Part shown: in pieces, positions 14,328 through 38,849 of the stretch
Layout of the letters: each line of letters starts with the position of its first letter
Numbering within the stretch: the stretch's first letter is position 1
Assembly: GCA_036172245.1 (NCBI GenBank)
Contig: JAYWIR010000004.1
Coordinates: 5,394,001 to 5,458,000, forward strand
Direction: 5' to 3'
DNA: 64,000 bases
DNA from: Raillietiella orientalis
Taxonomy: Eukaryota
Program-made: the position numbers and the translations under genes
The notes under the pieces: model-generated
Told to the model about the DNA's origin: nothing
What the model saw: only the letters and a program-made list of their open reading frames with translations
Database searches by the model: none

Positions 14328-14346
14328 ATGCCCAGCACCATCCGAG
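14328..14346 (+). CDS. Hr3: HR3 alternative first coding exon A (MPSTIR + G)
   Basis: ATG CCC AGC ACC ATC CGA G|GTAAGC: strong phase-1 donor. Joined to 33199 it gives [15 protein letters not shown]. It lies downstream of a promoter-like block with an EcRE-like site. Confidence 0.7.
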
Positions 14347-20663: not shown

Positions 20664-20754
20664 ATGGCGTGGGCTACCACCAGCACCGCCGCCAGCACCG
20701 GCCCGCAGGTCGCCATGGAGGTCGGTCGATCCGCCGCCGCCAAGTCCATCAAAG
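20664..20754 (+). CDS. Hr3: HR3 alternative first coding exon B ([30 protein letters not shown] + G)
   Basis: ATG at 20664 (AAGATGG context); 91 nt ending AAA G|GTAGCC, phase 1. Yields ...[12 protein letters not shown], the junction known from insect HR3. Confidence 0.8.
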
Positions 20755-23091: not shown

Positions 23092-26000
23092 AACCTGCGC
23101 GTTGCGAGAAGCTGCGCGGCAGCAAAGGGTTCGCCGGCACGGCCAACCTGGGAATCCTCCGAGTGACTGCGCAGGGAAGGCGAGCGCTGAACAGAGGGGA
23201 AGAGACAGGAGAGGGGAAAGAAGAGGAAGAAGAAGCTTTCTAAAAGAGAGGAGCATCAAGGAGGAGGAAGCAGGCGGTGTCTTTCTTTTGTGTGTGCGTG
23301 TGTTTGGTTCTCCCCGCCCCCACTCCCCCCCCCCCGCTTTCTCCTCCCCTCTCCTCTGCTTCCTCCTCGTGGTACGCGGAGGCCAACGCCTGTTGTGTGG
23401 CGGACGGTGCAGAACACGCAGCGCTTGCGATCCCCTCGACCGGCAGCCATCGCGAGATGTTCATTCGCGAGGAAGAAAGGAAAGCAGGCTATCGGCAGCC
23501 GGCCGAGATGTTCACTTCCAGTGAGGTTCTTCGTTGTTTTTCGTAAGGGGAGGGGGGGGGGGGGCGGAGGGCACCTGTGCAGCACTTTGCCTATGGATTT
23601 CCTCTCGGGAAGGGGGGGAGTGGGAGGGAGGGGGGGAGGGTTCGCAGGGGCTAGAGGGGAGACGGGATAAGGAAAGCGCGTTGCTCTGAAGTCCTCGTCC
23701 GAGCAGGTTTCACGGGAACCCCTCGGACGAAGTCTCGGAGCGGGAGCGCCGCAGCGCGCGCGCATGCACGAAGCGAACGTTTCAAGGAACTGTTTCTCCG
23801 TCATTGCATCTCTCCTCCTCGTTGCCTTGTTGATGCCCTGGACCGGCAGTGCCTCCGCCGCTTGGAAAAAATTGTGGCGCGCGCGCGCGCGCTCTCCAAG
23901 GAACCGTGTAGGCCCGATGGCCTCGAAGGTGCTTCCGCGGAAATTCTTCCGAGAAGTTTTTTTTTTTCTTCTTCTCCTTCTCTGTTTGGCTTTCGGAAGC
24001 GGCACGGATGAGATTCCTGGGCAGCCTTGCCCCACTCGCAAGGGGAATCCCCGCTTTCCAAGAGGCGTCCAGATTCCCCGTTACTTCCTCCCCGAAACTC
24101 GCACTCGATCCTTTTTCTGCGGACGTTTCGTCTTTTTTTTTCTTTTTCTTTTGTGTTTTCGTCTTCGGCAATGGAAACTCCTCAAGCAGCGATCGATCTC
24201 CGACCCGCAGCGGAACGTGATGTCTGCAGTAGGGTCACCGCATGCACCCACATAGGAACCGTTGCACAGCAGCAGCTCACGCTATCCCCTCATTCTCCTT
24301 TACATTTTTTCTTTCCTTTCGTGTTGCCCTAGGCCCTCCCGTTTTCGAAACAATGCTTGCTCATCGTACGCTGAGGAGCTCGGCAGGCAACAATGCTTCT
24401 CCGAGCAACAATGATCGCGCGACAGAGAGCTCCGCGCAACAATGCCGGTGAGCACAAACATTTTTCCCAGCGAGCAAAATACGCCTGTTGGTTGCAATCA
24501 AGTGCTGCCAACACGTTCGCTCGAGTGAGCGTTTGCACATGTGCACGCTTCGCAGGTCGTGGCAGGAGTGCGTGCTCTGCACATACGCAACGGTGCACTT
24601 GCATTTACATTGGATCTGCGAGAGCAGGAGGCGCTGTTCCCGCCGAAGAACGTTCCGAAGCTTACCCGGGACGCGTGCGCGCGTGACGACGTACAAAAGG
24701 AACGAAATCCCCGAAAATAAATAGAGGGAGTTCCCGCGAAATGAAACCACGAGGCGCTGCAATGGGAGCCCGTCCAGGGGTCTGTGTAGAGCTGGAGGTG
24801 ATTCGGAAGGAGTTTTTCCCGACGTCGTACCCCTTAGCCCCCTTCCCCCCTCCCCTCCCCCTCCTCCTCCCTTCCTCCTACTCTTTCCCTTCACTCTCGC
24901 CCCTTTTTCTTGTTTCCATTATGGAGTATCTGCTGCCGGAAGGGATCCGCGCGAGTGGGGTCGACAAGTGTTCCTCCTCCTTCCCTGCCGCAGCATGACG
25001 GTCTCCTTTCTGGATTCCGAGGGGCGAGCGGGAGCGGCAGGATGAAAAGAGGAGCATCGCATCGGAATGACGACGGCGGTGTGAATGACCACAGAGCCGT
25101 TAACCAGGCTCCTAGCCGAGGTTCAGGAACGTTCGAGGATCGTATCTAAAACGGGAATTTGGGAAGGGGGAGGGGGGAGAGAGAAACCGCTTGCGTCCTT
25201 CCCCCCCCCTCCTCCCCCCCTTTGTTTTGGTTCCCTGTGAAGGTCGTTCTCTGCTCTCATCGGCGTTTCTTCCGACTCAAACCGTGCATTCGTGCTGCGG
25301 AATGCCTACTTTGTACCGGAAGTCTCAGATCGGGAAGCTCTCATCCCTGTGGGCTGGAGTTACTTGTCAGAGAGACTTCCCTTTTCGGGCTGAAGGAAGA
25401 CCACACCGCCGAGGAAGCTCGTATGCGCCGCTGGGAATCCGCTCGTCCTTTGTCGGACGCCGAGGAGGCGCCTCTCACTCCCGGCGTTGTCTCGGGAGCA
25501 CGTGTCGGCGTCCTCTGCATGGCGGACCCTGTCGAGAATCCACGCTTCCCGGCCTTGTGAAAATGCGCTCCTTGCAGAGCCACTTTCGTGGAAAGGCGCT
25601 TCCTGTGTGTTTCTTGGTAGCCGGCAGCTGGGAGCCATCGCGCGGGGAACGAAAAAGAGTTCTTCCCAGGAGGAGACTCATGAAAGATGCGGTCCTCTGG
25701 AGCGCTGGCTCCGTGCACGACCGATCGACCTACCGACTCGGGTCCTCCTTGGCCGCTTGTTCCTCACCGGCATGCAGCTGGGCGCGCGAGGTCATCAGTA
25801 CGTGTCGGGAAGCACCCATCCGCCTTCTTCCCTACTGCTCCTTCCTTGAAACCGGCGGGGATCTTCTGACGACGACGGTTGACGAGGTGTGCCTCCTCCC
25901 CCTCCCCCTCCTCCTGCCCTTTTCTTCTCTGCGTCTCCGGCCACCGCTGCCAGCCCTCCAGCCCGCTCCTTCTGCCCTGTTCCAGCTTCTTCTGGCGGCG

Positions 26001-28036
26001 CTGGGAGGTTCCTCTCCTCTTCGGTCCGCGGACCGAGAGAGGCGCCTCGGACTCGAAGCCGGTCCAGCGGTGGCCGCCCCAGGGCGGGGGAGGAGCGCTT
26101 CCGCCCCACGAAAGCCCCTTTCATCCCGTACGCCCTGGCGCGTTTCTACCCTCTTCGCCTTGCTTCGCGCGTCGTAAAGGGGTTCCAGCCCCCCATCCCT
26201 CTCTTTCTCTCTCTCCCGCGGGATTCGACCTTCGAGAGTTTCGTGCATTCCTTCTCGAAAACCTGGAAAATCAAAAACACCCACCCACACCCACGGGAGA
26301 CCCAATGGAATCGCCGAGGACGGCGCGGGAGTCGCTCCGCACGAGGCGGAGGAGCGACCGGTGCGGATGGCAGGAGAGCACGCGTTCCTCCGCGCGCGCG
26401 GGAGCGCCACCCTGCCGCTAGCCCGTCGCCGTGTGCCCGCGTGCCGCCCGCTCGCGTGCGTCCTCGCGTGAGCGCGCGCATTTTGAGTGATACTGATGCT
26501 GTGATTCATTTCTCCAGTGTGATTTATCTACGTTTCTAACCTGACCTCATCTGTTGGTTACAGCGTTAGTATAAAAACGGTAGAATGGATCGTGCCGGTG
26601 ACGTCACTCCGGAAGAGTCGAACAAGACAAGTGTGAATTTGTGCACGGGCAGCCTCGCCTTCCTGCAGTTGTCCTGTAGGACCGCGAAGAAATCCCATGT
26701 CGATTGTGAGTACCTTGAGATTTGTCTCTGAGAACATGCCCCGCGCATCCCCGGAGCGTCCTCCCCGGACGGAAGCGAGCGAAAGGGAAGCGGAGCAAGG
26801 GGAGGAGAGGAGAGCACGACTGTTGCTCTGCTCTTCCTGACCGCGATTGTTGCTCGTCCTGGATGCCTTCGCCGTTTCCTCCCTTCTCGGCGCCGTTGTC
26901 GCCGTTCGTTCGAGCGGAAAGCCGCAAGGAAATCCACCCCCTCCTTTCTCTCCCGTCTCCTCCTTCCGGGTCGATCGGTCAGGCGTTCGCGCGTGTGCGT
27001 GCCCGCGCGGCAGCGCCAGAGGGGAGGTCCGTCCCTCCGGGATGCGTTCGTGCGGGCCAAGGATGGCCGAGGAAGCTGTCCCGTCCTCGTCCTTATCCCC
27101 TCCCTTCTTCCCCACCTCCATTCGTATCGTCAGGGTGACCTCGAGGCCGTGGTGGCTGTCGAGTGCTGTTACCCGGCGGTGTTTGGGTGAGCGGGCTTGT
27201 TCTTCCGGCTCCTCCTCCCCGCGAGCGAAGGGAGGAAGGAGAGGAGAGTGTTGGAGAGGGTGGGTTAGAAGGGGAGCTGGGCCTCTGCCGCCGAGGAGCG
27301 CCTCCTGCTGCTGCTGCTGCTGCTGCTGCTTGCCACTTGCTCTTTGCAGTTTTCCGTTTGGTTAGGCGCGCTCCTCCCTCGTCTACAGTCCGTGCGCCCG
27401 CGGAGTTCCTTGACGCGCAGGTCGGGATATGAGAACGCGGGAAGGAACGGGATCCGTCCACTGCCGTGTCGAGGTCTCCCGGTCTCCTGGCACCCGGGAC
27501 TCTCGAGCCTGGCACACGATGTTGGTCCCCGCAGGCGTCGGAGGCGGCCGTATCTGGGCAGGATAGAGACGCGGGTCCCTTCCCCGCAAGCAGGGAGCGG
27601 TAGCAAAATCCAGGGATCCCTTCTCAACAGGCGGGAGGAAGAGAAGAGGAAGCGCCTTGGCTTCGATTCATCTCCTACCGTCATTCCCCCATCCACCCTT
27701 TCGACTTTCTGATAACGGAAACATGCGCGCGGGGGATGCTGCTGCCGTTCGTTCGCCACCCCAGCCGGTGGCGCGTCTTTCGTTTTCCTTCAGCCTCCCC
27801 CCCCCCCCCCCCGTCGCAGTCCGCTTCGTCCCTCCCTCTTCCCTTTCTCCTTCCTTCTTTCCTTCCTCCTGCTCCTCCTGTTTCTTTTTCGGTGTGCTGG
27901 AACGTCAGGCATCTCTTCCGCATCCGGAAACTCGCTAGGAGTTCGACGAACCCCGCCGCCATCCAGCTGGGCCAAACAGTTTTCACTCGAGATGCGTCTT
28001 ATCGGGAGACAAACATCACGGCAACCGGGCTGACAC

Positions 28037-28068
<32 letters not shown>

Positions 28069-31000
28069 AAGAGCGTTGATCTCGCCCGGCGAGCGTGCGC
28101 ACGCGCGAGCTCGACGCTGAGGGACGAGCAGGGTGCGGCGATGGACCCGCCGCGCACCAACACCTACCCTCTTGTCTTAACGCGCGACGGGTCCATCGCC
28201 GCACTCTGCTTGTCTCTTAGCGTCGGGGTCTGCGATCGGCAGGTACCTCCTTGCTGCCCCCCCCTCCCTCCCGCTCCCCTCCCCTCTCCCCCCCCCTCAC
28301 TCGTTCGCCTGCGTAGAGGACGTCTTCTCTGTCGCAGCTCGCCCCTCCCTTCCTTTCGGTTTGCGTTTTTTCTCCATGGCAACCGTCCCCCTCTCCTGCC
28401 GGGCCGGCCCCGTTCCGAGCCGCCGGCGGACTTACGGATGGAGAGGAGGAAGAGAGGCTTTGCGTGCACAGCTCCTCCTCCCCTGCTTCCTTGTTCCCCT
28501 GAACGCACGCCATCGCGTGGGAGCGGAGCAGAAGACGCGGGCCGCCGCTCCCTCGAGGGTGCTGGCCGTGCGCCTATGGGAGCGCGGCGCCACCGGGCTG
28601 GCAGCCTCCCATCCCTCCCTCCTCTTCCTCCTCGTCCGCGGAGCAGATGCGGGAGGAGCTGGCGTGGACGGGGTGGACGGCGCCGCCGCCCGCGTGGCCT
28701 CGGGAGAGTCCAGAAGAGAGAGAGGGAAGGGTGGCCGTGCCCACCCTGCGCCGAGAGGGCGAGATCGGTCGCGCCTGCGCGTCGTCGGGAAGCGCGCGGC
28801 GAGGCCGGCTGTGCACGTCCGGATGACGCGGGACGCGTAGCGAGAGTCTGGAGAGCCCTGCCAACGATCCCGAGTGTTCGGCGTCGCAGCCGCAGAAGCG
28901 GAGCCGGGGAGAGAGAGAAGGAGAGAGAGAGAGAGGAGGGAGGGGGAAGGGAAAGGAAAGCAAAAGGAAGAGGAGGGAAAACGGCGCGCGAGGCAAGGCG
29001 CTCCTGCTTCGCCGCCGCAGCGCGGGGAGAGGGTGTCGGGTTCTGATCCAGGGAGCGCCATCTCGGCGCCGCTGGCTCCCGCCTGAAAGGAAGAGCCCCG
29101 AGTACGGCAGCGCCGCGACGCCCACATTCTACCCTCCTCCCATTTCCGCCCTCTTCCTGTCCATCTTGTCCCTCGCAATTTCTCTGGCTAATCGATGCGG
29201 GAGGAAACCGATCCTGTCCCCCTCCTGCCTCAAAAGGCTCCAGGGAGAACGGGGGTCTGGGATGGAAGCGGACGTCGGTCGAGCTGCTCTGGCCGCTCTG
29301 CTCCTCCGCGGAGCACGCCTCGAGGGACCTTTCTGTCTCCCGCGCCTTCTCTGGGACGAGGTGTGCCAGTCACCTCCCAGAGAAGGAAAATCCCCGATTG
29401 GTGGGCGCGAGCCGCCGGCGAGTATCTTCCGGGGGGGTGGGGAGTGGGGGGGGGGAAGGGGTTTTGCTGTGCTCTGCCCCACACATGGCTGCCATTGCCG
29501 TCACTGTTGCGGCCGCGCGAGGAGACTACGGACGGTTCCCCTCTCCCCCTTTCCCTTCCTCACCCAGCTCTTGGGCCACCGGGCACCCGGGACCCAGCTC
29601 TCTCTCTAATCTGAACCGAGGGCCCCGCTCCGCAGCCCCCGGAGGGTTCTTCACTCATCTGCCTCCTTCGCGTGGTGAGGTCCGGACAACCCTGCAGTTC
29701 ACCCCTCGGCTGCCAGGGGATCCCCGTCCCCTCCACGTGCCTCGCAGCCTCCGTGAAGGGACGTGGGGGGCCGCGTGGTGTCTCTGTCTTTTCCCCTCCC
29801 CCTTCTGCACCGCAGGCTCGCAGCAGCCCACCCTTCCTCCTCCCTCCCCTCCTCCCCGGACTCCGACGCCGCCCCTCGTCGCTGGCTCGTTCGTGCCTTC
29901 CCGCGCCGGCCGGCCGGTGACGCTCTCGGGCGCTCCGGGGAGCGCGAAGCTCCTTCGCGAAGAAAAGCAGACGCGCGCTGTCAGCCCACGCAACGGCGGC
30001 GGCAGCGGCGGCGGCGGCGGCGGCGAGCGCCTCCCGAGGAGGAAGGGGCGTCGTCATCGCCTTCAGGGAGAGCGAGCGAGGGGCCCCGGTGACCTCGGAT
30101 GCATCCGGGCGAGTCCGCCCGTTTTCTCCTCCTTCCCCCCCCTACCGCTCACCCGAACGACGCGTCCCGATGCGTGGAGGGGAGGCAGAGGCAAGGCGGA
30201 GGGATCGGCCCCTCCCTTCCCCCCCCCCTCTTTCCGCTGCCCCTCCCAGAGGACGAGGAGGAGGAGAGTGAATGCACAGTCCTACCTGATTTTACCCGGA
30301 GAGTCAACGGAGTGTTCCCTCACCGGGTTCTTCCATCCCCCTCTTCCGGTTCCCTTTCCTCCCGAAGAGATGCGTCCGGCCCGTATTTGCGTTGCCAGCA
30401 GCTCCCGTCTCTAGGGATTTGCTTCGGGACGGCGCCGGTGGCTCTTCCCCTCCCCTTCCTTCCCCCTTTCTGCGGGTGCCATCGTGCCCTCCGGCGCCGC
30501 GCAACCGCCCCGTCGAATGGGTGCGCTCTCAACCTCCAGAGGAACCTCAGGACGCGCACCCGGCAGGCGTCGTTGCATCCCTGCCTCTCATCCGCCTCCA
30601 TGGGAAGGGGGGGGGAGCGCGTGGACGAAGATCATGGTCCGAAGAGGTGGGGGGAGGAGAGGAAGGGAACCAACGCGCGTCCTCTCGCCTCGTTCTCCCG
30701 GACGCGAGGTGCGCGCGTCCTCCTCTCTTCTCCCGGAGGAGCAGTCGAGGGTCCCCGAAGGCGAGCCCAGGCAGGCAGCTGCCACCCCGCCGCCGGTTCG
30801 CCGATCCTCGCGCGTCCTCGCGGAGCTCGGGAGAACCCGCAGCCGCACGCGCGGCGCGCGCGCGCTCTTCGGCGCCCCTTCCTGCCTCCCTCGTCCGCAC
30901 CTCGTGCCCTTCGCCGCGAGTCCCTGCTCCCTCGAAACAACCCTCCTTCCTCCTCCCTGCGCGCGACTCCCTGTTGACCCTCAGGCATCCACGGCGGCGG

Positions 31001-34000
31001 CTTCTCTTGCGGGTCGATTCGTCTCCTTCGCGCAGCGGGCTGCAGGCGGAAAATTCGGCGATCCCCGGCAGTGGGTCGGGCGGATCTTCCCTCCGGGAAC
31101 GCTCCGGGAATTGGATCGTTTCTTCGAAAGGCAAGCCGCCCTCGTACGCGGGGGACTCCCCGCTTCGTCCGGTGACCCCTTCGGACCTTTCTCGGTCTCT
31201 TCGGCTTCCCGAACGCGCCCCTGGAATCGTCCCTCCTGACAACGGGAAAGGTTACGCGGTACCCTCGTGCTGCTATCCCCTCTCGAGCACCTTCCGTCGC
31301 GAGGCTCAGAAGGGTCAGCAGACCAGGGGCAGGGAGGGGGTCCTTCCGACTCCTCCCGTCTTCGCCTCTCTGTCTTCTCTGGGGTTGTTACGAGGTTCTG
31401 GGAAGGCCCCAGCCACTCCATCCCCCTGCTGACTCCGCAACCGCGAGCGTGCGGCGAGTAGAGGGGCGGGGGCCGGAGGGTGGAAGGAGAAGCCGCCGCC
31501 GAGGCCACGGAAGAACTGCCGGGGGCTTCTTCAGTCGGACCATGGCGGCTGCGAGGGGAATCCTGAAACGTCCTGCGGAAGGGGCGAGCGCGTGGGCCCA
31601 GCACCTTCAGCTTGGTGGGTCCTCCCCTCTCTCCGACCCGACGTTTCCCTTCCGGCCCCAGGAGGGATTCTGCGCGCTCTCCTTCCCGTCTCGTGCCCCA
31701 AGACCGACCGACCCGGGTCGCCGCACCCGCGCAGTCCGAGAAGGCGGGCTCGCTGCCTTCCTTCCCTCTTGGGGCCAGGTGGAAGGGGCGCCTCGCGCGG
31801 AAGGCCGCCTCTGGAAAAGCGGACGGCAACCCTTCGGGAGGTGCCTGCAGGGAAGGGGTCTGGAGACAGACGCCTACGATCTCCGCTGCCTGCAGAGATC
31901 GTAGGCGGCAGAGAGGGACGGTGCCTTCGTGCTCAAAGGGGACTGGAAGGAAGGAAGAAGGTCCCTACTCTCTGAGGACCTACTCCCGTGGTGCGGCAGC
32001 GGATGGGTCCCGAGTGCAGAAGGACCGTTCCACGTCCGCTCCCCCGGCTCCCGCAGAAGACGATTATGACCTCTCGGGACGTGGTGTACCGCGCCCCCAG
32101 GAGCGAAAGAGCGCTAAGTGAAGGAGCGCGGCCACGGGCCGCTTGGTGGAAGGAGGGAACGGGAAATCCATTCGAGAGCTCCTGACGCTCTGCAGAGGCG
32201 ATTTCCAAGGGGGGTGTATCAGGCAGTTCCATGGTGAGCGACGGAGGGTCCTCCTGCCTGTGGGAGACGGCTCCTTGATTCCTGGAAGGACCCTAGAGGG
32301 CCGAACTTCCAATCCCTGCCAGTCAGCGGGGTCACGCTTCCTTCTTTCCGAGGGTGGCTCCTCCCCGCGCTTCTCCCCCCTACGAGGGGAGGCGGGCCGC
32401 GGAGTCTCCCTGGGATCTCCCTCTCCCTGGAGAACACGGAAGTGGGTGTGGAGGGGGAGGGGAGTGGTGGTGTCTCCCGTGGAAAGGTTCCTCTCCGAGA
32501 AGGAGGAGGGGTGTTCCCCTCCTTTCCCTGCCGCCCCCGCGCCGGGAGGGAGCGAGGGAGGGAGGGAGGCGTCGGTCGGCTGCTGACTCCTCTTCCCCCC
32601 CCCCCCTCCTTCCTCAAGGTGACACGCGGGGGGAGCGCTCCCTCCCGGAGCCGCCGCTCCGCCGGGCGTCCTCCCGGACGCTTCCCCCCACCTTTGCGCC
32701 TTCCAAAAATACGGAGGACTTGGCAGTGCGTCGCCCTGCCGGTGTCATCCCCTTTGTTTTATTTGCGGGAGCGTCGTGTCGTCGGGATAGAATTACTGCG
32801 GATGAGAAGTTCCCCCCCTCTTGTGTGCTTCTCTCTTTTTTTTTTTCTTCCTCCTTCCTTCGTTCCTTCTCCCCCCCTCCTCCTTTTTTTTTGAGCGGGG
32901 GGAGGAAGGGCTTTCTCTCGCGAGTTGCGCGCGCGCGCGCGCGCGCCGAGCCACGGAGGCGGTCGAGAGCAGGCGGGTGGGAACTCGCCCGTGTCCTGGC
33001 CACCGCCCCGTGCGGGCGGCGGCAACGAAGGATCGGGGGAGGGAGGGAAAGAGTGAGCTGGGGGGGGGGAGTGGTAGTGCTCGCTCGCCCCCTCCTCCTC
33101 CCCTTCTCCAAACACCCTAATCCCCCCCGTTCTCGCCTCCGCGTGGTCGTCGCCTCCGCCGCCAGGGGCGCCACTCACTGATCCCGTCTCTCCCCCAGCT
33201 CAAATCGAGATCATCCCATGCAAGGTCTGCGGTGATAAGAGCTCTGGGGTGCATTACGGCGTCATCACGTGCGAAGGATGCAAAGGTTTTTTCCGCCGGA
33301 GTCAGTCCAGCGTGGTCAACTATCAGTGCCCGAGGCAGAAGAACTGTGTGGTCGACCGGGTCAACAGGAACCGCTGCCAATACTGCCGGCTCCAGAAATG
33401 CCTGGCCCTGGGCATGTCGAGGGACGGTAAGTTTCCCTCTAGACCCCATCCCCCAGGACCCCTGCTCCTCCTCCCTTTGAGTCCCCGGAAGCTACCGCTG
33501 CCAGCCCGAGGCGCGGAGCGCCCTCTCTCGGGCGAGCCGGAAAAGGGTAGACGGGGAAAGGGGACGCCGCTGCCCGCCCGTCCCAGGTGGGAAGATCTCC
33601 TCCCCAAGGCCAACTGGTGCGACCCCCTCTCTCTCATGCCCCAGGGTGCAGCAACCTCCCTCCCCTTCCGATTTCGGTAGGCCCCCTCCACCGCGCCACT
33701 GGCCTCTCGGAGCGAGGGAGGGGGCAGCGGAGGTCCCGCCGGCGGCCCCTGTCGAATCCGTCAAGACGCCCCCGCGCATCCTCCAGTGACCCAAGGGACA
33801 GGAGTCCCTGCGTCTCTGCCCTTCGGTCCGGTCCGGGACTCGCCCACTTGTCCGCCCTGCGCCCAACCCTCCACACCTTTCCTCTTTCCTTCCTCTCACA
33901 GACGTCCCCCTCTCGTTTTCTCTCTCTCCTGTTCCGCCCTGCTCTCCTTTCCTCCCGTCTCTCGTCCTGGGAGGATGGGGCGGAAGGAGGGGTGAAAGGA

Positions 34001-37000
34001 ACCTCGCAAACCTCTCGAAGTGCTTCCCGTGGTGCAGCCTGTGGGGGTGGGAGGGTTGGGAGCTCCCGCAGGATCACCGCCCTCCCTGACGAGGAACGCC
34101 CGAAACCCGCAGCCATTCCTGTAGGCTTCTCCTGCGGGTGCCTCCTCCTCGATGCGTCCCCGCAAGGGCCGTTCCCCGCTGGCAGCAGCCACATACCCTC
34201 TCCCTCTTCCAGGCCCCCTCGCCCGCGCAGGCGAAGCGACTGGATCGGCCTTTCCCTCGCGAGGGAGGCGAGAGAAACCCCCACGGGGTCCGGGAGGGCG
34301 CGCCCTCGGTCTCAGGCGCCTCCAAGAGAGTAAGGGCGTCGTTGGAAGGGGTCGCCTCCCTCACAAGAGACCCGTCCCATCTGGCCTTCCGGAGGGCAAG
34401 GAAGACGGCCGAGGGAGAGGGCGGCGGGGAAAGGCGCGCCCACTCCTGGGGGAGAAGCCGTGCCAGAGGGCGGACTGGAGACAGTCGGATGGGTATGGGT
34501 AAGGTGGGGTGAGGGGAGGGAGCAGAGAGGGTTGGGCAAAGGGAGGGGAGCGTGGCCACCTTTTCCGCCCTGCTCCTGTGATCCCTTTCCGGGGAGGCAC
34601 TCGGTCGGGCGGACGCCGCCGCTCGGAAAGGGACCATCACCGCGGAATAAAATCGCCTCGGGGCATTCCGGCATTCCTCCGCGCTGCGCGGGAGAGACCG
34701 TGCACTTGACCTTTCGGCGTAACGGGTCCTCGCCTCGCACCTCTCCGTCCGCATGGCGGAGCGGCGTCGGCATTGGCGTCGGCTGCGGAGACTTCGTCCG
34801 GGTAACGGGAAAGATCCGGTCACGCCTGGAGCGCCCTTCTTCGGATCCGGGCGGGTCTCGTGAAGCAGCAGCCGCCGCCGCCACCGAAGAGCGTTGACCG
34901 GCAGTTCCTGTTACTTCGGCCGTTCCTTCCTCCTCTCCCCCCCTCCTCCTCCTCCTCTCGGACCCATCCGCTTCCTGTTCCACTTTGCTCGCCCCCTCCA
35001 GCCGCCGCAGTTGCCCGTTGCCTTTCGGCGGCGGCCGCAGCGGCCGGAGGGGGCGGAAGAGTTGGCGTTTTCTTTTTTTTTTTTTTTTTATTCCTTTTCT
35101 TTTTTTTTTGTGCTCCCTCGTTCCACGCTTCGCCACCTGTCAGCGCCTTCGGGGCGAGGAGGAAGCGCGCGGAGGAATGCGGACGGCGGGAGTACCGCGC
35201 GAATACGCCTGCGCTCGCATCCCCGCCACCGTCACCCCCGGTTGAGTCGGCACCGGCGGTGTGCGCGCGCGCGATACGTAACGGATCTGCGCGCACTTCC
35301 CTTTCCCGTTTCTTCCCCCTCCCAGCGGCGCAGCGCGCCCGATGCGATCGGCGTTCCGGAGGGACGAGAGGAGGACACGGGGAAGGCCGGCAGACAGACC
35401 CCGGGGCTGCGTCGCGGGCATTCCCTCTAGCGATCTCTCCTCCGAGCAAATCCGCACTGCTGACGGAGCACTTTGCGAGCCCGCGCGTGTGCGTGGGAGA
35501 GGCGGAAAGGGAAAAAAGTGAGGGGGGAGCAGGAGCGTCCTTTGCCTGCTCCCTCCCTGGAGGTCACCTGCAGGAAGGCGACCCCAGGGGAGGCAGCGCT
35601 CCGGGAACAACGCGCAGAGTCCCAATGCAGATCGCGGGGGAGGCGGGGAAATACTCCTCTCCTCCCGCCCACTCTCCCGGGACCGGGAGTGGGTGCTCGA
35701 AAACATTTCCACGTGGGGCGCGGGTGACCAGGGGCGGGCGAGGAGGAAGTGAGGGATCTAATCTTCCTTGGAGACTGGCTGTCGCTGTAAGGACGCGTGT
35801 CTGCCCGAGGACCGTTCCTGGGAGTCAGACTTCCTAGGCGACGACTGCGGCCCGCTGGTCCCTCCTCCTTCCGTGGAAGGCAGACGCCTCGCCTTCGACG
35901 TGACCCCCCCTCCAGGGCGAACGGCGGTGTCAAGTGTTTCCTCCTCCTCCCAGGTGCTTCGGTCATCGCCGAGGGGTAACCGAAGGGGGGAGGAGGGTCC
36001 TTCGTCCCGCATCCTCTCTCTGCTCCCTCCCCCTCACCTCCGCTAACCCTGGTCTTCTCGTTTCCCCCCAGCTGTGAAGTTCGGCCGCATGTCCAAGAAG
36101 CAGCGAGAGAAGGTCGAAGATGAGGTTCGGACGATCAAGGCCCAGTTACGCCTGCAGAATCCCGGTTCTTCTCCCGACAGTTCCGTGTTCGACCCCCAGC
36201 TGCCGTCTTCCTCCGACCAGATCGGCACTTCCTACTCGCAAGGAGGGTTCGTCCGCTTTTTTTTTTTTTTTCTTTATCTCTTCTCTCTCTCTTTCTCTCT
36301 GCCTCCTCCTCCCCCTTGCAATGGCTGCAGAGGCTCTCCCTACCCATGCTCCCGAAATTTCTCTCCCTCTCCCTCGCCACACACTCTTTCTCTGTCTCGC
36401 TCTCTCCTGACCCCGCGCGCGATTCCACCAGGTATGGTTACGGTGGAGACCTCAGCAGCTACACGCCCAACGGGTACCCTTCCTTCGGCGGTGCGTCGTC
36501 GGTGACCTTCGACGTGAGCGGAACGGACTTTGTCGATTCCACGACCTTCGACCCCAGGCATCCGTCCACTCCTTTGGACCCACTGCCAGACAGCAATATT
36601 TTCTCCTCGGTCGCCTCCTCGGGGAAAAGTGGTTTCCTGACTTGCCCGGACGACCGCATTCCCTCCTCTCCCCTGTCTCGTGGTGGACTGTGCCCCTCTT
36701 CTTCTCCTATCCCCGGCTCCAGACTTTCTGCTTGCTGTGATATGCCCAGCGCTGGTGATGCTGCTCCCGACGGAGGAACCGCGGTCATCAAGTCCGAAGC
36801 TGAAGCCCTGCAGACTTCTGCCGGAGGAGGAGGAGGCGGCTCCAACAGCCCGTCTTCCGCCCAGACCATTCCCTCGGAGGCGGAGCAGTACGACCCTTGT
36901 GAGTACGAGGATGGAGGGCCACCGCCGGCGGGTCCGGTGCGAGCCCTCTCGGTCGTGCGACGCGCGCGCCTCAGAGGCAGCTGGCGGCGTCCTCTCGAAG

Positions 37001-38849
37001 TTTTCTTGTTTTCTCGCTCGCTTTTTTCTTTTCGTTGCAGCTTCTGCAGCGGAGGCGGAGGAGGAGGCACCAGCAGCGTCCTCTGGTGCTGTTGTGTGTA
37101 TGTGTGTTTTCCTTCTCCCGTCTTGCTCTCTTGCTGTCGGTCCGCTCACGCGCGTGCGCGCGTGCTCGTGCGTCGTGACATGGCCTCTTTCTTTTCGTGC
37201 GCTTGTGTTTTGCTTTCTTGGTTTCCTCCCCCCCTCCTCCTCTCCCTCCTCCTCCATCAGTAGCTGCTTTGTTTCCTTCTTTCGTTCTTTTGTTTGCCTG
37301 TGTGTGTGTATGTGTGTGTGTTTTTTTGTTGTCGTCATCGCCGCCGCCGCGGCTTCCTCCTCTTTTCCGATGCAAGGGAGCCTTCGAGGGAGGGCGGTCG
37401 TCGCGCTAGCGGAACGCTCCCTCGCCATTGCCCTTCCTTTTTGTCTCTTGCATTCTGCTTGCAGACGGAGCACAGATCACGGAGCTGCTGTCCCGTACCA
37501 TCGCGGATGCCCACCTGCGCACCTGCCTCCTGTCCACCGAACACATCCACCACCTGTTCCGCAAGCCTCCTGATCTCAGTAAAGTGTTGTATTACAAGAA
37601 CATGGTAAATGCTCGCCTCCTCCCTTCCTCTTCTTCGTCGTCTCCTCCTCCTCCTCTCTCGATCTCTCTCCCCCTTCCCCTCCCTCCCCCCCCCCTGCGT
37701 CGATCTCGTCGCGGCCTTCCGGGACGAAGCGGGTCCCCTCTTGCCGTTGCAGGCTCACGAGGAGCTGTGGCTGGACTGCGCGCAGAAGCTCACAGCCGTC
37801 ATCCAGCAGATCATCGAGTTCGCCAAGATGGTTCCGGGCTTCATGAAGCTGTCCCAGGACGACCAGATCGTGCTGCTGAAGACGGGTGACTTTTTCCTTC
37901 TTTGCCTCGCTTCTTGTGGTGACGTCTGCCTCCCATTTCCTCCTCCTCCCCCTCTGACATAAGGGAGCTTCGAAGTGTCCGCTATCCAGATGAGCCGCTG
38001 CTACGACCTCAGCCAGAACTGCGTGCTGTACGGGGAGACCCTGCTGCCGCTGGAGGCCTTCCTGACTTCGGACACGGACGAGATGGCGCTCGTGACCAGG
38101 AGCTTCGAGATTTCGCGGTCCATCGCCGAGCTGAGGCTGACGGAAACCGAAACCGGTCTCTTCTCGGCGTACTGCCTTCTGTCCCCAGGTAACACCCCTG
38201 CGCTCCCCCCCGTCCCTCCTCCCCCGAAGCACCGCCGCCGCGCCCCCGTCTCCGCCGCTCCCGTTTCCCACCTCTTCCTCCTCCTCCTTCACCGCTCCCT
38301 CCTACCTCCTCCCCCTCCGCGCGCGCGCGAACGCGCTCTTCCAAGCGAGACCGCTCCCCTTTCTCCCCCCCCCCCTCTCCCGCCTTCTTTCCGGGTGCCG
38401 CCACCTTCACCGTCCAGAGAGACCCGGCCTGAAAGACGTCATCCAGATCCAGAGGTTGAACGCGGCCGTGCTGAGGGCCCTGAGGATCGAGCTATCCAGG
38501 ACGCACCGCTATCCTCTGAAGGGCGACGTGGGAGTATCCGAGGCCTTGATCTCGCGTACCGCCGACCTCAGGTAAGGAGAACTCCATCCAGACCCTTCCT
38601 CCTACCCCGACCGTGATCACACCTTCCTTCTCCTCCCTCCGTTCTTCCTCCTCTTCTCCTCCGTCCCTCCTGCGAATTACTCTTCCTCCTCTCACCGGGA
38701 ACGCCGCCGCGTTTCTCTCCTCCCTTCCTTTTCACACCCCCAGGGATGTCAGTCTGCTGCACATGAGCGCGCTGGCCAAGTTCAGGCGCTCGGCGCCCCA
38801 CCTCGAGTTCCCGGCCCTGCACAAAGAGCTTTTCTCCGTCGACAGCTGA
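20664..38849 (+). CDS. Hr3: Nuclear hormone receptor HR3 (NR1F4/ROR family), spliced model join(20664..20754,33199..33426,36072..36246,36432..36898,37465..37604,37753..37885,37964..38188,38418..38571,38744..38849); 1719 nt = 572 aa + stop
   Basis: All introns are GT..AG with matching phases and the total length is divisible by 3. The protein has [47 protein letters not shown] (C4 zinc fingers), the [20 protein letters not shown]-terminal extension, the LBD signature [24 protein letters not shown] and the AF-2 end [13 protein letters not shown], all typical of arthropod HR3. Confidence 0.95.
23055..23087. repeat. (GCC)11 microsatellite
   Basis: Read directly. Confidence 0.95.
24333..24447 (+). 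other. Candidate HR3 alternative 5' exon D (coding from ATG 24393: [18 protein letters not shown] + G)
   Basis: Long polypyrimidine tract + TAG acceptor (24331-24332) and G|GTGAGC donor at 24448. ATGs at 24393 and 24411 are phase-1 compatible with the DBD exon. No recognisable protein similarity. Confidence 0.35.
26585..26705 (+). CDS. Hr3: HR3 alternative N-terminal exon C ([40 protein letters not shown] + T); exon probably starts at 26564
   Basis: High-complexity, lower-GC island with CTAAC/CTGAC branch motifs, TTACAG acceptor (AG 26562-26563), ATG 26585, 40 open codons and a T|GTGAGT phase-1 donor. Gives ...[16 protein letters not shown]. Confidence 0.65.
27305..27328. repeat. (CTG)8 microsatellite
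   Basis: Read directly. Confidence 0.9.
28039..28068. repeat. (GGC)10 microsatellite
   Basis: Read directly. Confidence 0.95.
32927..32946. repeat. (GC)10 alternating dinucleotide run
   Basis: Read directly; ~250 nt upstream of the DBD exon. Confidence 0.9.
33199..33426 (+). CDS. Hr3: HR3 exon: DNA-binding domain (two C4 zinc fingers, P-box CEGCKG)
   Basis: cccccag|CT CAA ATC GAG...AGG GAC G|gtaagt; 228 nt, phase 1/1. Confidence 0.98.
36072..36246 (+). CDS. Hr3: HR3 exon: C-terminal extension and start of hinge ([20 protein letters not shown]...[17 protein letters not shown])
   Basis: ccccag|CT GTG AAG TTC...CAA GGA GG|gttcgt; phase 1/2, matching the next acceptor. Confidence 0.93.
36432..36898 (+). 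CDS. Hr3: HR3 exon: hinge ([15 protein letters not shown]...[11 protein letters not shown]...EQYDP), long form
   Basis: caccag|G TAT GGT TAC; the frame is open to CCT T|gtgagt at 36899 (phase 1). The 3' boundary is less certain because a weaker G|GTTTCC donor exists at 36632. Confidence 0.8.
37465..37604 (+). CDS. Hr3: HR3 exon: LBD start ([20 protein letters not shown]...YYKNM)
   Basis: ttgcag|AC GGA GCA...AAC ATG|gtaaat; phase 1/0. Confidence 0.95.
37753..37885 (+). CDS. Hr3: HR3 exon: LBD helices 3-4 ([44 protein letters not shown])
   Basis: ttgcag|GCT CAC...ACG G|gtgact; contains the nuclear-receptor LBD signature; phase 0/1. Confidence 0.97.
37964..38188 (+). CDS. Hr3: HR3 exon: LBD ([24 protein letters not shown]...[21 protein letters not shown])
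   Basis: ataag|GG AGC TTC GAA...CCA G|gtaaca; preceded by a 78-nt intron; phase 1/1. Confidence 0.95.
38418..38571 (+). CDS. Hr3: HR3 exon: LBD ([52 protein letters not shown])
   Basis: gtccag|AG AGA CCC GGC CTG...CTC AG|gtaagg; phase 1/2. Not shown in this frame by the ORF track. Confidence 0.95.
38744..38849 (+). CDS. Hr3: HR3 last coding exon with AF-2 ([34 protein letters not shown])
   Basis: ccccag|G GAT GTC...AGC TGA; phase 2. Confidence 0.96.

What the first reader, a model, noticed from the sequence alone, without database searches (positions are those of the whole stretch)
26564..26705. Hidden HR3 N-terminal exon resembling vertebrate RORgamma/RORalpha N-termini (MDRA...[16 protein letters not shown])
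Seen: an exon-like island missed by the ORF track, with branch point, CAG acceptor, in-frame TAG upstream of its own ATG (26585), 40 codons and a perfect GTGAGT phase-1 donor. Splicing to 33199 creates T|CT = Ser and gives MDRAGD...[18 protein letters not shown]. Known (from memory): human RORgamma1 starts MDRAPQ...LAAKKTHTSQIEVIPCK and RORalpha has [14 protein letters not shown], whereas typical insect HR3 has ...IK/IR-AQIE. Inference: an arthropod HR3 isoform may retain an ancient 'KKxH..SQIE' A/B module usually thought of as vertebrate. The MDRA match may be coincidence.
Basis: partly seen in the sequence, partly recalled or inferred. Interest (0 to 1): 0.8.

Follow-up and report, generated by a model that had tools for sequence, protein, structure and literature searches.

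The report
Possible extra first exon of HR3
A short open reading frame in the long first intron of a crustacean moulting-hormone receptor gene (HR3) may be a third alternative starting exon, but no RNA or related genome was available to prove it, and its likeness to vertebrate ROR proteins remains unproven.

Summary
The sequence facts hold. There is a CTAAC branch point, a cag acceptor before 26564 and an in-frame TAG at 26567. An ATG at 26585 opens 40 codons (P0001). A GTGAGT donor at 26706 leaves one T, which makes Ser with the CT that opens the HR3 DNA-binding exon at 33199.

This anatomy alone is at chance level. I counted 12 such ATG-frame plus phase-1 donor sites upstream on the + strand, against 23 per 64 kb on the opposite strand.

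Three things favour a real exon:
- Its third-codon-position GC excess of 0.225 falls in the range of all 10 known exons (0.22-0.50). Only 1.3-2.7% of non-exonic open frames reach it.
- The start context is AGAATGG.
- I found two canonical alternative start exons that use the same acceptor: MPSTIR at 14328 and MAW..KSIK at 20664.

Against it, no protein, profile or HR3 N-terminus matches the peptide. The island also holds a TATAAAA and a cAMP-response-element palindrome. No RNA run was listed.

KK[ST] next to the junction already occurs in ordinary crustacean HR3 forms (10 of 94 tails), so it is not vertebrate-only.

Verdict: real alternative exon about 0.5; deep vertebrate homology about 0.12.

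The parts
26536..26540 (+). CTAAC branch-point-like motif, 24 nt upstream of the acceptor AG
   Evidence: read; not tested functionally
26564..26705 (+). candidate exon (142 nt) if the cag acceptor at 26561-26563 is used; it could instead be a first exon with a start site somewhere in 26.50-26.58 kb
   Evidence: donor matrix score 2.76, within the 0.33-7.47 range of 7 known donors of the gene
26567..26569 (+). in-frame TAG upstream of the ATG; blocks read-in from upstream coding exons
   Evidence: joining either canonical 5' exon (phase 1) to 26564 would read Ala-Leu-Val-stop
26585..26704 (+). 40-codon open frame P0001 (MDRAGD...AKKSHVD), start context AGAATGG
   Evidence: GC at codon positions 0.47/0.47/0.70, like the DNA-binding exon at 0.49/0.44/0.79. 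The excess is confined to the ORF and absent in the flanks
26706..26711 (+). GTGAGT donor, phase 1 (one T left over)
26570..26576 (+). TATAAAA, 9 nt upstream of the ATG; if it acts as a TATA box the start site would fall downstream of the ATG
   Evidence: 3 in the window against 0.36 expected
26599..26606 (+). perfect TGACGTCA palindrome (cAMP-response-element type) inside the open frame
   Evidence: 3 in the window (16765, 18232, 26599) against 0.46 expected; 2 of 100 shuffles reach 3
33199..33426 (+). HR3 DNA-binding-domain exon (phase 1 in, phase 1 out), the proposed splice partner
   Evidence: (100% identical to many crustacean and chelicerate HR3)
14328..14346 (+). canonical alternative first coding exon MPSTIR+G, donor gtaagc; gives MPSTIRA before QIE
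   Evidence: the same N-terminus is in P0016, P0018, P0055 (named Daphnia magna HR3 isoform X6) and P0104 and in transcript-like loci L038-L041
20664..20754 (+). canonical alternative first coding exon [30 protein letters not shown]+G, donor gtagcc
   Evidence: resembles the widespread MSW...KVEV...SSGSIKA form; GC3 excess 0.25
36072..38846 (+). remaining HR3 exons (hinge and ligand-binding domain). Homology blocks lie at about 36072-36229, 36433-36624, 37455-37604, 37753-37884, 37963-38187, 38417-38572 and 38688-38846
   Evidence: best match is the ostracod Darwinula stevensoni HR3 P0041 (63% over 422 residues)

Best explanation
The island is a genuine but so far unannotated alternative 5' coding exon of an HR3 (NR1F, ROR-type) nuclear receptor gene of an ostracod-like crustacean.

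Transcripts that carry it would start translation at ATG 26585. They would splice from 26705 to 33199 and make a receptor whose A/B domain is P0001 plus a junction Ser, fused to the common DNA-binding, hinge and ligand-binding domains.

It would be the third alternative start of the gene, beside MPSTIR (14.3 kb) and MAW...KSIK (20.7 kb). As in other HR3/ROR genes, it would give a stage- or tissue-specific isoform. Its short basic patch (KKS) would sit just ahead of the first zinc finger.

Shown: the anatomy, the phase, the coding-like base pattern and the multi-exon 5' architecture of the gene. Inferred: transcription, splicing, translation and any function of the N-terminus.
For: 1) Phase and frame fit the DNA-binding exon exactly.

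2) The excess of GC at the third codon position over the mean of positions 1 and 2 is 0.225. All 10 of 10 known exons of this gene have 0.22-0.50. The other 10 unconfirmed candidates with equal or better donors have -0.27 to 0.19. Non-exonic open 120-nt frames reach 0.225 in 2.0% of 8363. Within 1-33190 on both strands the figures are 1.3% of 7402, and 2.7% of the 1652 with GC <= 0.60. The excess is absent in both flanks.

3) The start context AGAATGG has A at -3 and G at +4.

4) The donor score of 2.76 lies inside the range of the 7 known donors, 0.33-7.47.

5) The same acceptor demonstrably serves two other alternative first coding exons. Relatives show three or more N-terminal classes.

6) KK[ST] within 12 residues of the junction is found in 10 of 94 distinct real HR3 tails. 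It is found in only 10 of 3927 open tails before any phase-1 GT in non-exonic window DNA, or 9 of 1425 at GC <= 0.60. That motif class was defined after seeing the data.

7) No Pfam family and no other gene explains the region on either strand. No Rfam family does either.
Against: 1) The anatomy alone is at chance level: 12 on the + strand of 1-33198 against 23 per 64 kb on the opposite strand.

2) Nothing resembles the peptide.
- The word search among longer proteins scored none of its 5 candidates at E <= 10.
- The exhaustive phmmer search of 1.84 billion representatives gave 2 hits, both tandem-repeat artefacts.
- The PDB gave 0 hits at E <= 10.
- The metagenome scan gave 0 relatives among 596 pattern matches.

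3) Tests against HR3 N-termini were not significant.
- Against 159 N-termini the best local score of 32 is reached by 37.5% of shuffles.
- Global alignments to 8 N-termini, 6 of them the 'DTTT...KKxNSIKA' first exon of malacostracans (higher crustaceans), give z <= 1.54.
- A profile of that class scores the ORF at -1.4 bits, E = 220 among 1612 ORFs.

4) The island is one of several AT-richer islands in the intron that look regulatory. It carries TATAAAA and one of three TGACGTCA palindromes.

5) The middle of the peptide ([15 protein letters not shown]) is more hydrophobic and Cys-rich than typical disordered A/B domains.

6) The donor has T at -1 and -2. The pyrimidine tract is modest (my count: 11 of 16).
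Confidence: 0.5

Rival explanations
1. Chance open frame in a non-coding island. The 260-bp AT-richer island (about 26470-26740) would be an intronic regulatory element of HR3, an enhancer or promoter-proximal module. The ATG, the open frame and the GTGAGT would be fortuitous, and nothing is translated from it.
For: - The anatomy is at chance level.
- 328 stop-to-stop ORFs of >= 110 aa fill this 62-68% GC window. All 37 that I tested have no Pfam family.
- The intron holds other AT-richer islands with binding-site-like clusters: 16.6-18.0 kb with TGACGTCA, and 24350-24444 with four ACAATG.
- TGACGTCA occurs 3 times in the window, all in the HR3 5' region and one inside the ORF, against 0.46 expected.
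- No homologue turned up in any search.
Against: - The GC3 excess is confined to the ORF and reached by only 1.3-2.7% of comparable non-exonic frames.
- The start context is good.
- KK[ST] next to a phase-1 donor is rare in non-exonic DNA, at 0.25-0.63%.
- The absence of homologues is weak evidence. The databases hold no close relative of this species: the ligand-binding-exon search found nothing, and the best relative is 63% identical.
Confidence: 0.38
2. Transcribed but non-productive exon. There are two versions. In the first it is a cassette included after the MPSTIR or MAW exon through the acceptor at 26564. That reads Ala-Leu-Val-stop and would act as a poison exon or short upstream ORF. 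In the second it is a non-coding first exon started about 30 nt downstream of TATAAAA, which would be downstream of the ATG.
For: - The acceptor and branch point are present, and an in-frame stop lies 2-3 codons after the acceptor.
- The exon is 142 nt long, which is not a multiple of 3, so it cannot be an in-frame cassette.
- TATAAAA lies at 26570.
- In-frame cassette exons between the A/B exon and the DNA-binding exon do exist in other arthropod HR3 transcripts, such as L027, L028, L029, L035 and P0102. This intron is therefore a known site of extra exons.
Against: - A non-coding or poison exon would not be expected to show a frame-specific GC3 excess.
- A start site downstream of the ATG leaves only an out-of-frame ATG at 26697, so that transcript would encode no receptor (reading).
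- No RNA data are available either way.
Confidence: 0.12

Closest known systems
Alternative N-terminal (A/B) isoforms of arthropod HR3 made from alternative 5' exons
   Same: Same gene and same acceptor: the phase-1 codon just before QIE. It has its own ATG and a short A/B peptide. Two such exons, MPSTIR and MAW...KSIK, are in this window. Daphnia, decapod, copepod-like and chelicerate proteins and transcripts show the same layout.
   Different: The peptide matches none of 135 distinct N-termini beyond chance. The junction residue is Ser, as in 8 of 94 tails, not Ala as in 76 of 94.
Pancrustacean 'DTTT...KK[ST]NSIKA' A/B exon (named lobster and other crustacean HR3 proteins P0013, P0017, P0052, P0111; copepod-like loci L001-L008)
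   Same: In malacostracans it is a first coding exon of similar size (43-50 residues against 41). KK[ST] lies a few residues before the junction. This class is otherwise missing from the window: no D[TS]T[TS] occurs in any + frame of 1-33198, so the candidate could be its diverged counterpart.
   Different: There is no DTTT core, no NSIK tail, and Ser instead of Ala at the junction. The class profile scores it -1.4 bits and global alignments give z <= 1.54.
I recall the same sequences, but no tool returned them.
   Same: By recall only: a KK-[ST]-H motif a few residues before a junction Ser that precedes QIE, and a similar first four residues in ROR-gamma. From tools: ROR-gamma isoform 1 has 21 more N-terminal residues than isoform 2 (passages of bioRxiv 10.1101/2025.03.10.642251). 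The PDB ROR-gamma chain 7xvn_A has 30 residues ahead of QIE.
   Different: Spacing is one residue longer here (KKSHVD-S). The middle parts have different lengths and show no likeness. P0001 gives no phmmer match to the PDB, 7xvn_A included, at E <= 10. [KR][KR][ST]H appears in 0 of 94 invertebrate tails, so no intermediate lineage links the two.

Membership tests
Alternative 5' coding exon of an HR3/ROR (NR1F) gene | Lies upstream of the DNA-binding exon, on the same strand, inside the same gene | tested here: met
   It lies 6.5 kb upstream of the exon at 33199-33426 and downstream of two canonical 5' exons
Alternative 5' coding exon of an HR3/ROR (NR1F) gene | Own ATG, open frame, and a donor leaving one base (phase 1) to complete the codon before QIE | tested here: met
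   the feature is at chance frequency on its own
Alternative 5' coding exon of an HR3/ROR (NR1F) gene | Coding-type base composition in the proposed frame | tested here: met
   GC3 excess is 0.225. Known exons have 0.22-0.50 (10 of 10). Only 1.3-2.7% of non-exonic open frames reach it
Alternative 5' coding exon of an HR3/ROR (NR1F) gene | Spliced transcripts joining it to the DNA-binding exon | not testable with these tools
   No RNA run was listed for the exon, so no reads could be laid
Alternative 5' coding exon of an HR3/ROR (NR1F) gene | Conservation of frame and donor in related species | tested here: inconclusive
   No match in protein, PDB or metagenome searches. The collections hold no close relative either
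Pancrustacean DTTT...KK[ST]NSIKA A/B exon | D[TS]T[TS] core motif | tested here: not met
   Absent from the ORF and from all three + frames of 1-33198
Pancrustacean DTTT...KK[ST]NSIKA A/B exon | Match to a profile built from 23 distinct members | tested here: not met
   -1.4 bits, E = 220 among 1612 ORFs of the window
Pancrustacean DTTT...KK[ST]NSIKA A/B exon | Basic pair plus Ser/Thr a few residues before the junction | tested here: met
   KKS sits at -7 to -5 from Gln. Class members have KK[ST] at about -9 to -6
Vertebrate ROR-gamma 1 / ROR-alpha 1 type N-terminal module | KK-[ST]-H motif directly ahead of a junction Ser before QIE | tested here: inconclusive
   The window side is read (KKSHVD + Ser). 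The vertebrate side is recalled only, and spacing differs by one residue
Vertebrate ROR-gamma 1 / ROR-alpha 1 type N-terminal module | Detectable sequence similarity to a ROR-gamma N-terminus | tested here: not met
   phmmer of P0001 against the PDB, which holds ROR-gamma chain 7xvn_A with 30 residues before QIE, gave 0 hits at E <= 10. A 40-residue query has little power
Vertebrate ROR-gamma 1 / ROR-alpha 1 type N-terminal module | Presence in intermediate invertebrate lineages, as expected if ancient | tested here: not met
   [KR][KR][ST]H is in 0 of 94 distinct tails, and an M[DE]xA start is in 0 of 167 N-termini. Only the best 120 of 6468 proteins and 80 of 373 loci were seen

The most novel reading that the evidence does not exclude
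The exon is real and is the direct counterpart of the isoform-specific first exons of vertebrate ROR-gamma 1 and ROR-alpha 1. Both ends would correspond: the start of the peptide, and the KK-[ST]-H patch before a junction Ser. On this reading the ROR/HR3 gene of the last common ancestor of bilaterian animals already had this alternative promoter and A/B module. The ordinary crustacean 'KK[ST]NSIKA' exon would be a third descendant of the same module.
Probability: 0.12. Interest if true: 0.65.

Novelty: new member of a known kind. Interest (0 to 1): 0.35.

Why it matters
HR3 is a core switch of the ecdysone moulting cascade. Its vertebrate relatives, the RORs, use alternative N-termini to change DNA-site preference and tissue role (established knowledge, recalled).

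A third start exon in a poorly sampled crustacean lineage would add an isoform that automatic annotation misses. If its ends truly correspond to the vertebrate ROR-gamma 1 / ROR-alpha 1 exons, alternative-promoter use in this receptor family would date back more than 500 million years.

A byproduct stands whether or not this exon is real. A KK[ST] patch next to the first zinc finger is shared by ordinary crustacean HR3 isoforms (10 of 94 tails). It therefore deserves a proper cross-phylum alignment.

Tried and rejected
- RNA evidence: the look-up of sequencing runs on 26564-26705 listed no RNA holder. No run was listed, so read laying could not be used.
- Whole genome: none is held for this window.
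- Earlier scan notes: nothing by place, by words or by sequence.
- Protein searches with the 40-residue peptide: the word search among longer proteins scored none of its 5 candidates at E <= 10. The exhaustive phmmer gave 2 hits, P0123 and P0124, both tandem-repeat proteins and rejected as artefacts.
- PDB: none at E <= 10.
- Metagenome scan with the 53-residue stop-to-stop ORF: 596 pattern matches, 0 relatives. The first attempt with 40 residues was too short.
- Search for close relatives with a ligand-binding-domain exon: 48 candidates, none scored.
- Canonical N-terminal exons by tblastn of N-termini: mostly low-complexity noise. The match at 1328-1426 does not end in the canonical tail and was rejected as chance.
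- Upstream flanks of 80 metagenome HR3 loci (123 kb): 8 [KR]K[ST][HN] words, none exon-like.
- Homology of P0001 to the malacostracan DTTT-class exon: not significant by local alignment, global alignment or profile.
- In-frame cassette reading: rejected, because none of the three AGs (exon starts 26564, 26570, 26584) gives a phase-1 to phase-1 exon (reading).
- Rfam over the whole window: 0 families.
- Pfam on 37 ORFs, including all those around the island: 0 families.
- Full-text searches for the junction motifs: 0 papers.
- Listings for HR3 isoform papers were seen as listings only and not read. Nothing in the titles bears on this exon.

Full report
**What is in the window.**
The window is 62-68% GC over most of its length. 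It carries, on the + strand, an HR3 (NR1F, ROR-type) nuclear receptor gene. The exon at 33199-33426 encodes QIEIIPCK...LGMSRD (P0002). It is 100% identical to the DNA-binding domain of many crustacean and chelicerate HR3 proteins. Hinge and ligand-binding exons follow up to about 38846. The best overall relative among the proteins retrieved is the ostracod Darwinula stevensoni HR3 (P0041). It is 63% identical over 422 residues and 92% identical in the exon after the DNA-binding exon. A search with a ligand-binding exon found no closer relative. None of the 80 metagenome loci is close either: the best is 63.5% in that exon. The source is therefore probably an ostracod-like crustacean with no near relative in the collections I could reach.

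**Check of the observation.**
All sequence statements are correct.
- CTAAC lies at 26536-26540.
- The acceptor AG is at 26562-26563.
- An in-frame TAG is at 26567-26569.
- ATG is at 26585, followed by 40 open codons (P0001) up to 26704 and a lone T at 26705.
- GTGAGT is at 26706.
- The DNA-binding exon begins with CT, so the junction codon is TCT = Ser.

**Is the anatomy more than chance?**
It is not. In this GC-rich DNA open frames are everywhere: there are 328 stop-to-stop frames of at least 110 codons, and none of the 37 that I scanned has a Pfam family. Twelve ATG-opened frames on the + strand of 1-33198 end in a phase-1 donor at least as strong as this one. The opposite strand of the whole window has 23, which is the same density. 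One of the 12 is a real exon (MPSTIR). With the strict GTRAGT hexamer there are 3.

**The gene does use alternative start exons.**
I looked for frames ending in [ILVM][KR]+G|GT and found two canonical first coding exons.
- MPSTIR+G at 14328-14346 has the donor gtaagc. It gives the MPSTIRA N-terminus known from a named Daphnia magna isoform (P0055) and from loci L038-L041.
- [30 protein letters not shown]+G at 20664-20754 has the donor gtagcc. It is a version of the widespread MSW...KVEV...SSGSIKA form.

Both feed the same phase-1 acceptor at 33199. A third exon at 26.6 kb would fit this architecture. The third class seen in other crustaceans (DTTT...KK[ST]NSIKA) is not detectable anywhere in 1-33198.

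**Evidence that the frame is coding.**
GC at codon positions 1, 2 and 3 is 0.47, 0.47 and 0.70, close to the DNA-binding exon at 0.49, 0.44 and 0.79. I define the excess as GC3 minus the mean of GC1 and GC2.
- The candidate has 0.225.
- All 10 known exons have 0.22-0.50.
- The 10 other unconfirmed candidates have -0.27 to 0.19.
- Non-exonic open 120-nt frames reach 0.225 in 2.0% of 8363 cases.
- Within 1-33190 on both strands the figures are 1.3% of 7402, and 2.7% of the 1652 with GC <= 0.60.
- The excess is confined to the ORF. The second half has 0.80 against 0.45 and 0.50, and both flanks lack it.

The ATG context is AGAATGG. The donor scores 2.76, inside the 0.33-7.47 range of the gene's 7 known donors.

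**The motif next to the junction.**
KK[ST][HNV] occurs once in all three + frames of 1-33198, and that is here. Among 94 distinct 12-residue tails before QIE, taken from 167 N-termini, the junction residue is A in 76, S in 8, T in 8 and P in 2. KK[ST] is present in 10, all of the DTTT class: KK[ST]NSIKA in lobster-like forms and KKT[VI]FTAKA in copepod-like forms. [KR][KR][ST]H is present in none. In non-exonic window DNA, KK[ST] lies in 10 of 3927 open 12-codon tails before any phase-1 GT, or 9 of 1425 at GC <= 0.60. A KK[ST] patch near the junction is therefore much commoner in real HR3 N-termini than in noise, which favours a real exon. I defined the motif class after seeing the data. The same counts show that such a patch is not a vertebrate speciality.

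**Evidence against.**
- Nothing resembles the peptide. The word search scored none of its 5 candidates at E <= 10. The exhaustive phmmer of 1.84 billion representatives gave only two tandem-repeat artefacts. The PDB gave nothing at E <= 10. The metagenome scan gave nothing.
- Against 159 HR3 N-termini, the best local score of 32 is reached by 37.5% of shuffles.
- Global alignments to 8 N-termini, 6 of them the malacostracan first exon, give z <= 1.54.
- A profile of 23 DTTT-class members scores the ORF at -1.4 bits.
- The best local match is a shared hexapeptide, DRAGDV, with a copepod-like HR3 (P0118, L023). It is matched or exceeded by 1.8% of shuffles and by 5.8% of non-coding 40-mers of the window, so it carries little weight.
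- The island at 26470-26740 (GC about 0.45) is one of several AT-richer islands in this intron that look regulatory.
- It holds TATAAAA at 26570 and a TGACGTCA palindrome at 26599. Three such palindromes lie in the window, all in the HR3 5' region, against 0.46 expected.
- If TATAAAA were a working TATA box, the start site would fall after the ATG. The only remaining ATG, at 26697, is out of frame.

**The vertebrate comparison.**
I could not fetch any vertebrate ROR N-terminus. The PDB holds one ROR-gamma chain with 30 residues ahead of QIE (7xvn_A). Passages of bioRxiv 10.1101/2025.03.10.642251 say it is isoform 1, with 21 more N-terminal residues than isoform 2. P0001 does not match it at E <= 10, though a 40-residue query has little power. 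If the recollection is right, two short matches at both ends of the peptide would be unlikely by chance. However, the spacing differs by one residue, the middles are unrelated, and no invertebrate tail that I saw carries the motif with His. Only the best 120 of 6468 proteins and the best 80 of 373 loci were visible.

**Mechanism and odds.**
My best reading, at about 0.5, is a real alternative 5' coding exon. It would give an HR3 isoform of P0001 plus Ser joined to the common domains, expressed from its own promoter or after non-coding upstream exon(s). The in-frame TAG after the acceptor means it cannot continue the MPSTIR or MAW frames. At about 0.38 it is a chance frame in a regulatory island. 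At about 0.12 it is a transcribed but non-productive exon. The deep-homology reading gets about 0.12. None of transcription, splicing or translation is shown.

**Comparison and novelty.**
If real, this is a new member of a well-known kind: the alternative N-terminal isoforms of HR3/ROR. It fails the tests for membership of the DTTT class. It can be neither placed in nor excluded from the vertebrate ROR-gamma 1 / ROR-alpha 1 type with the tools at hand.

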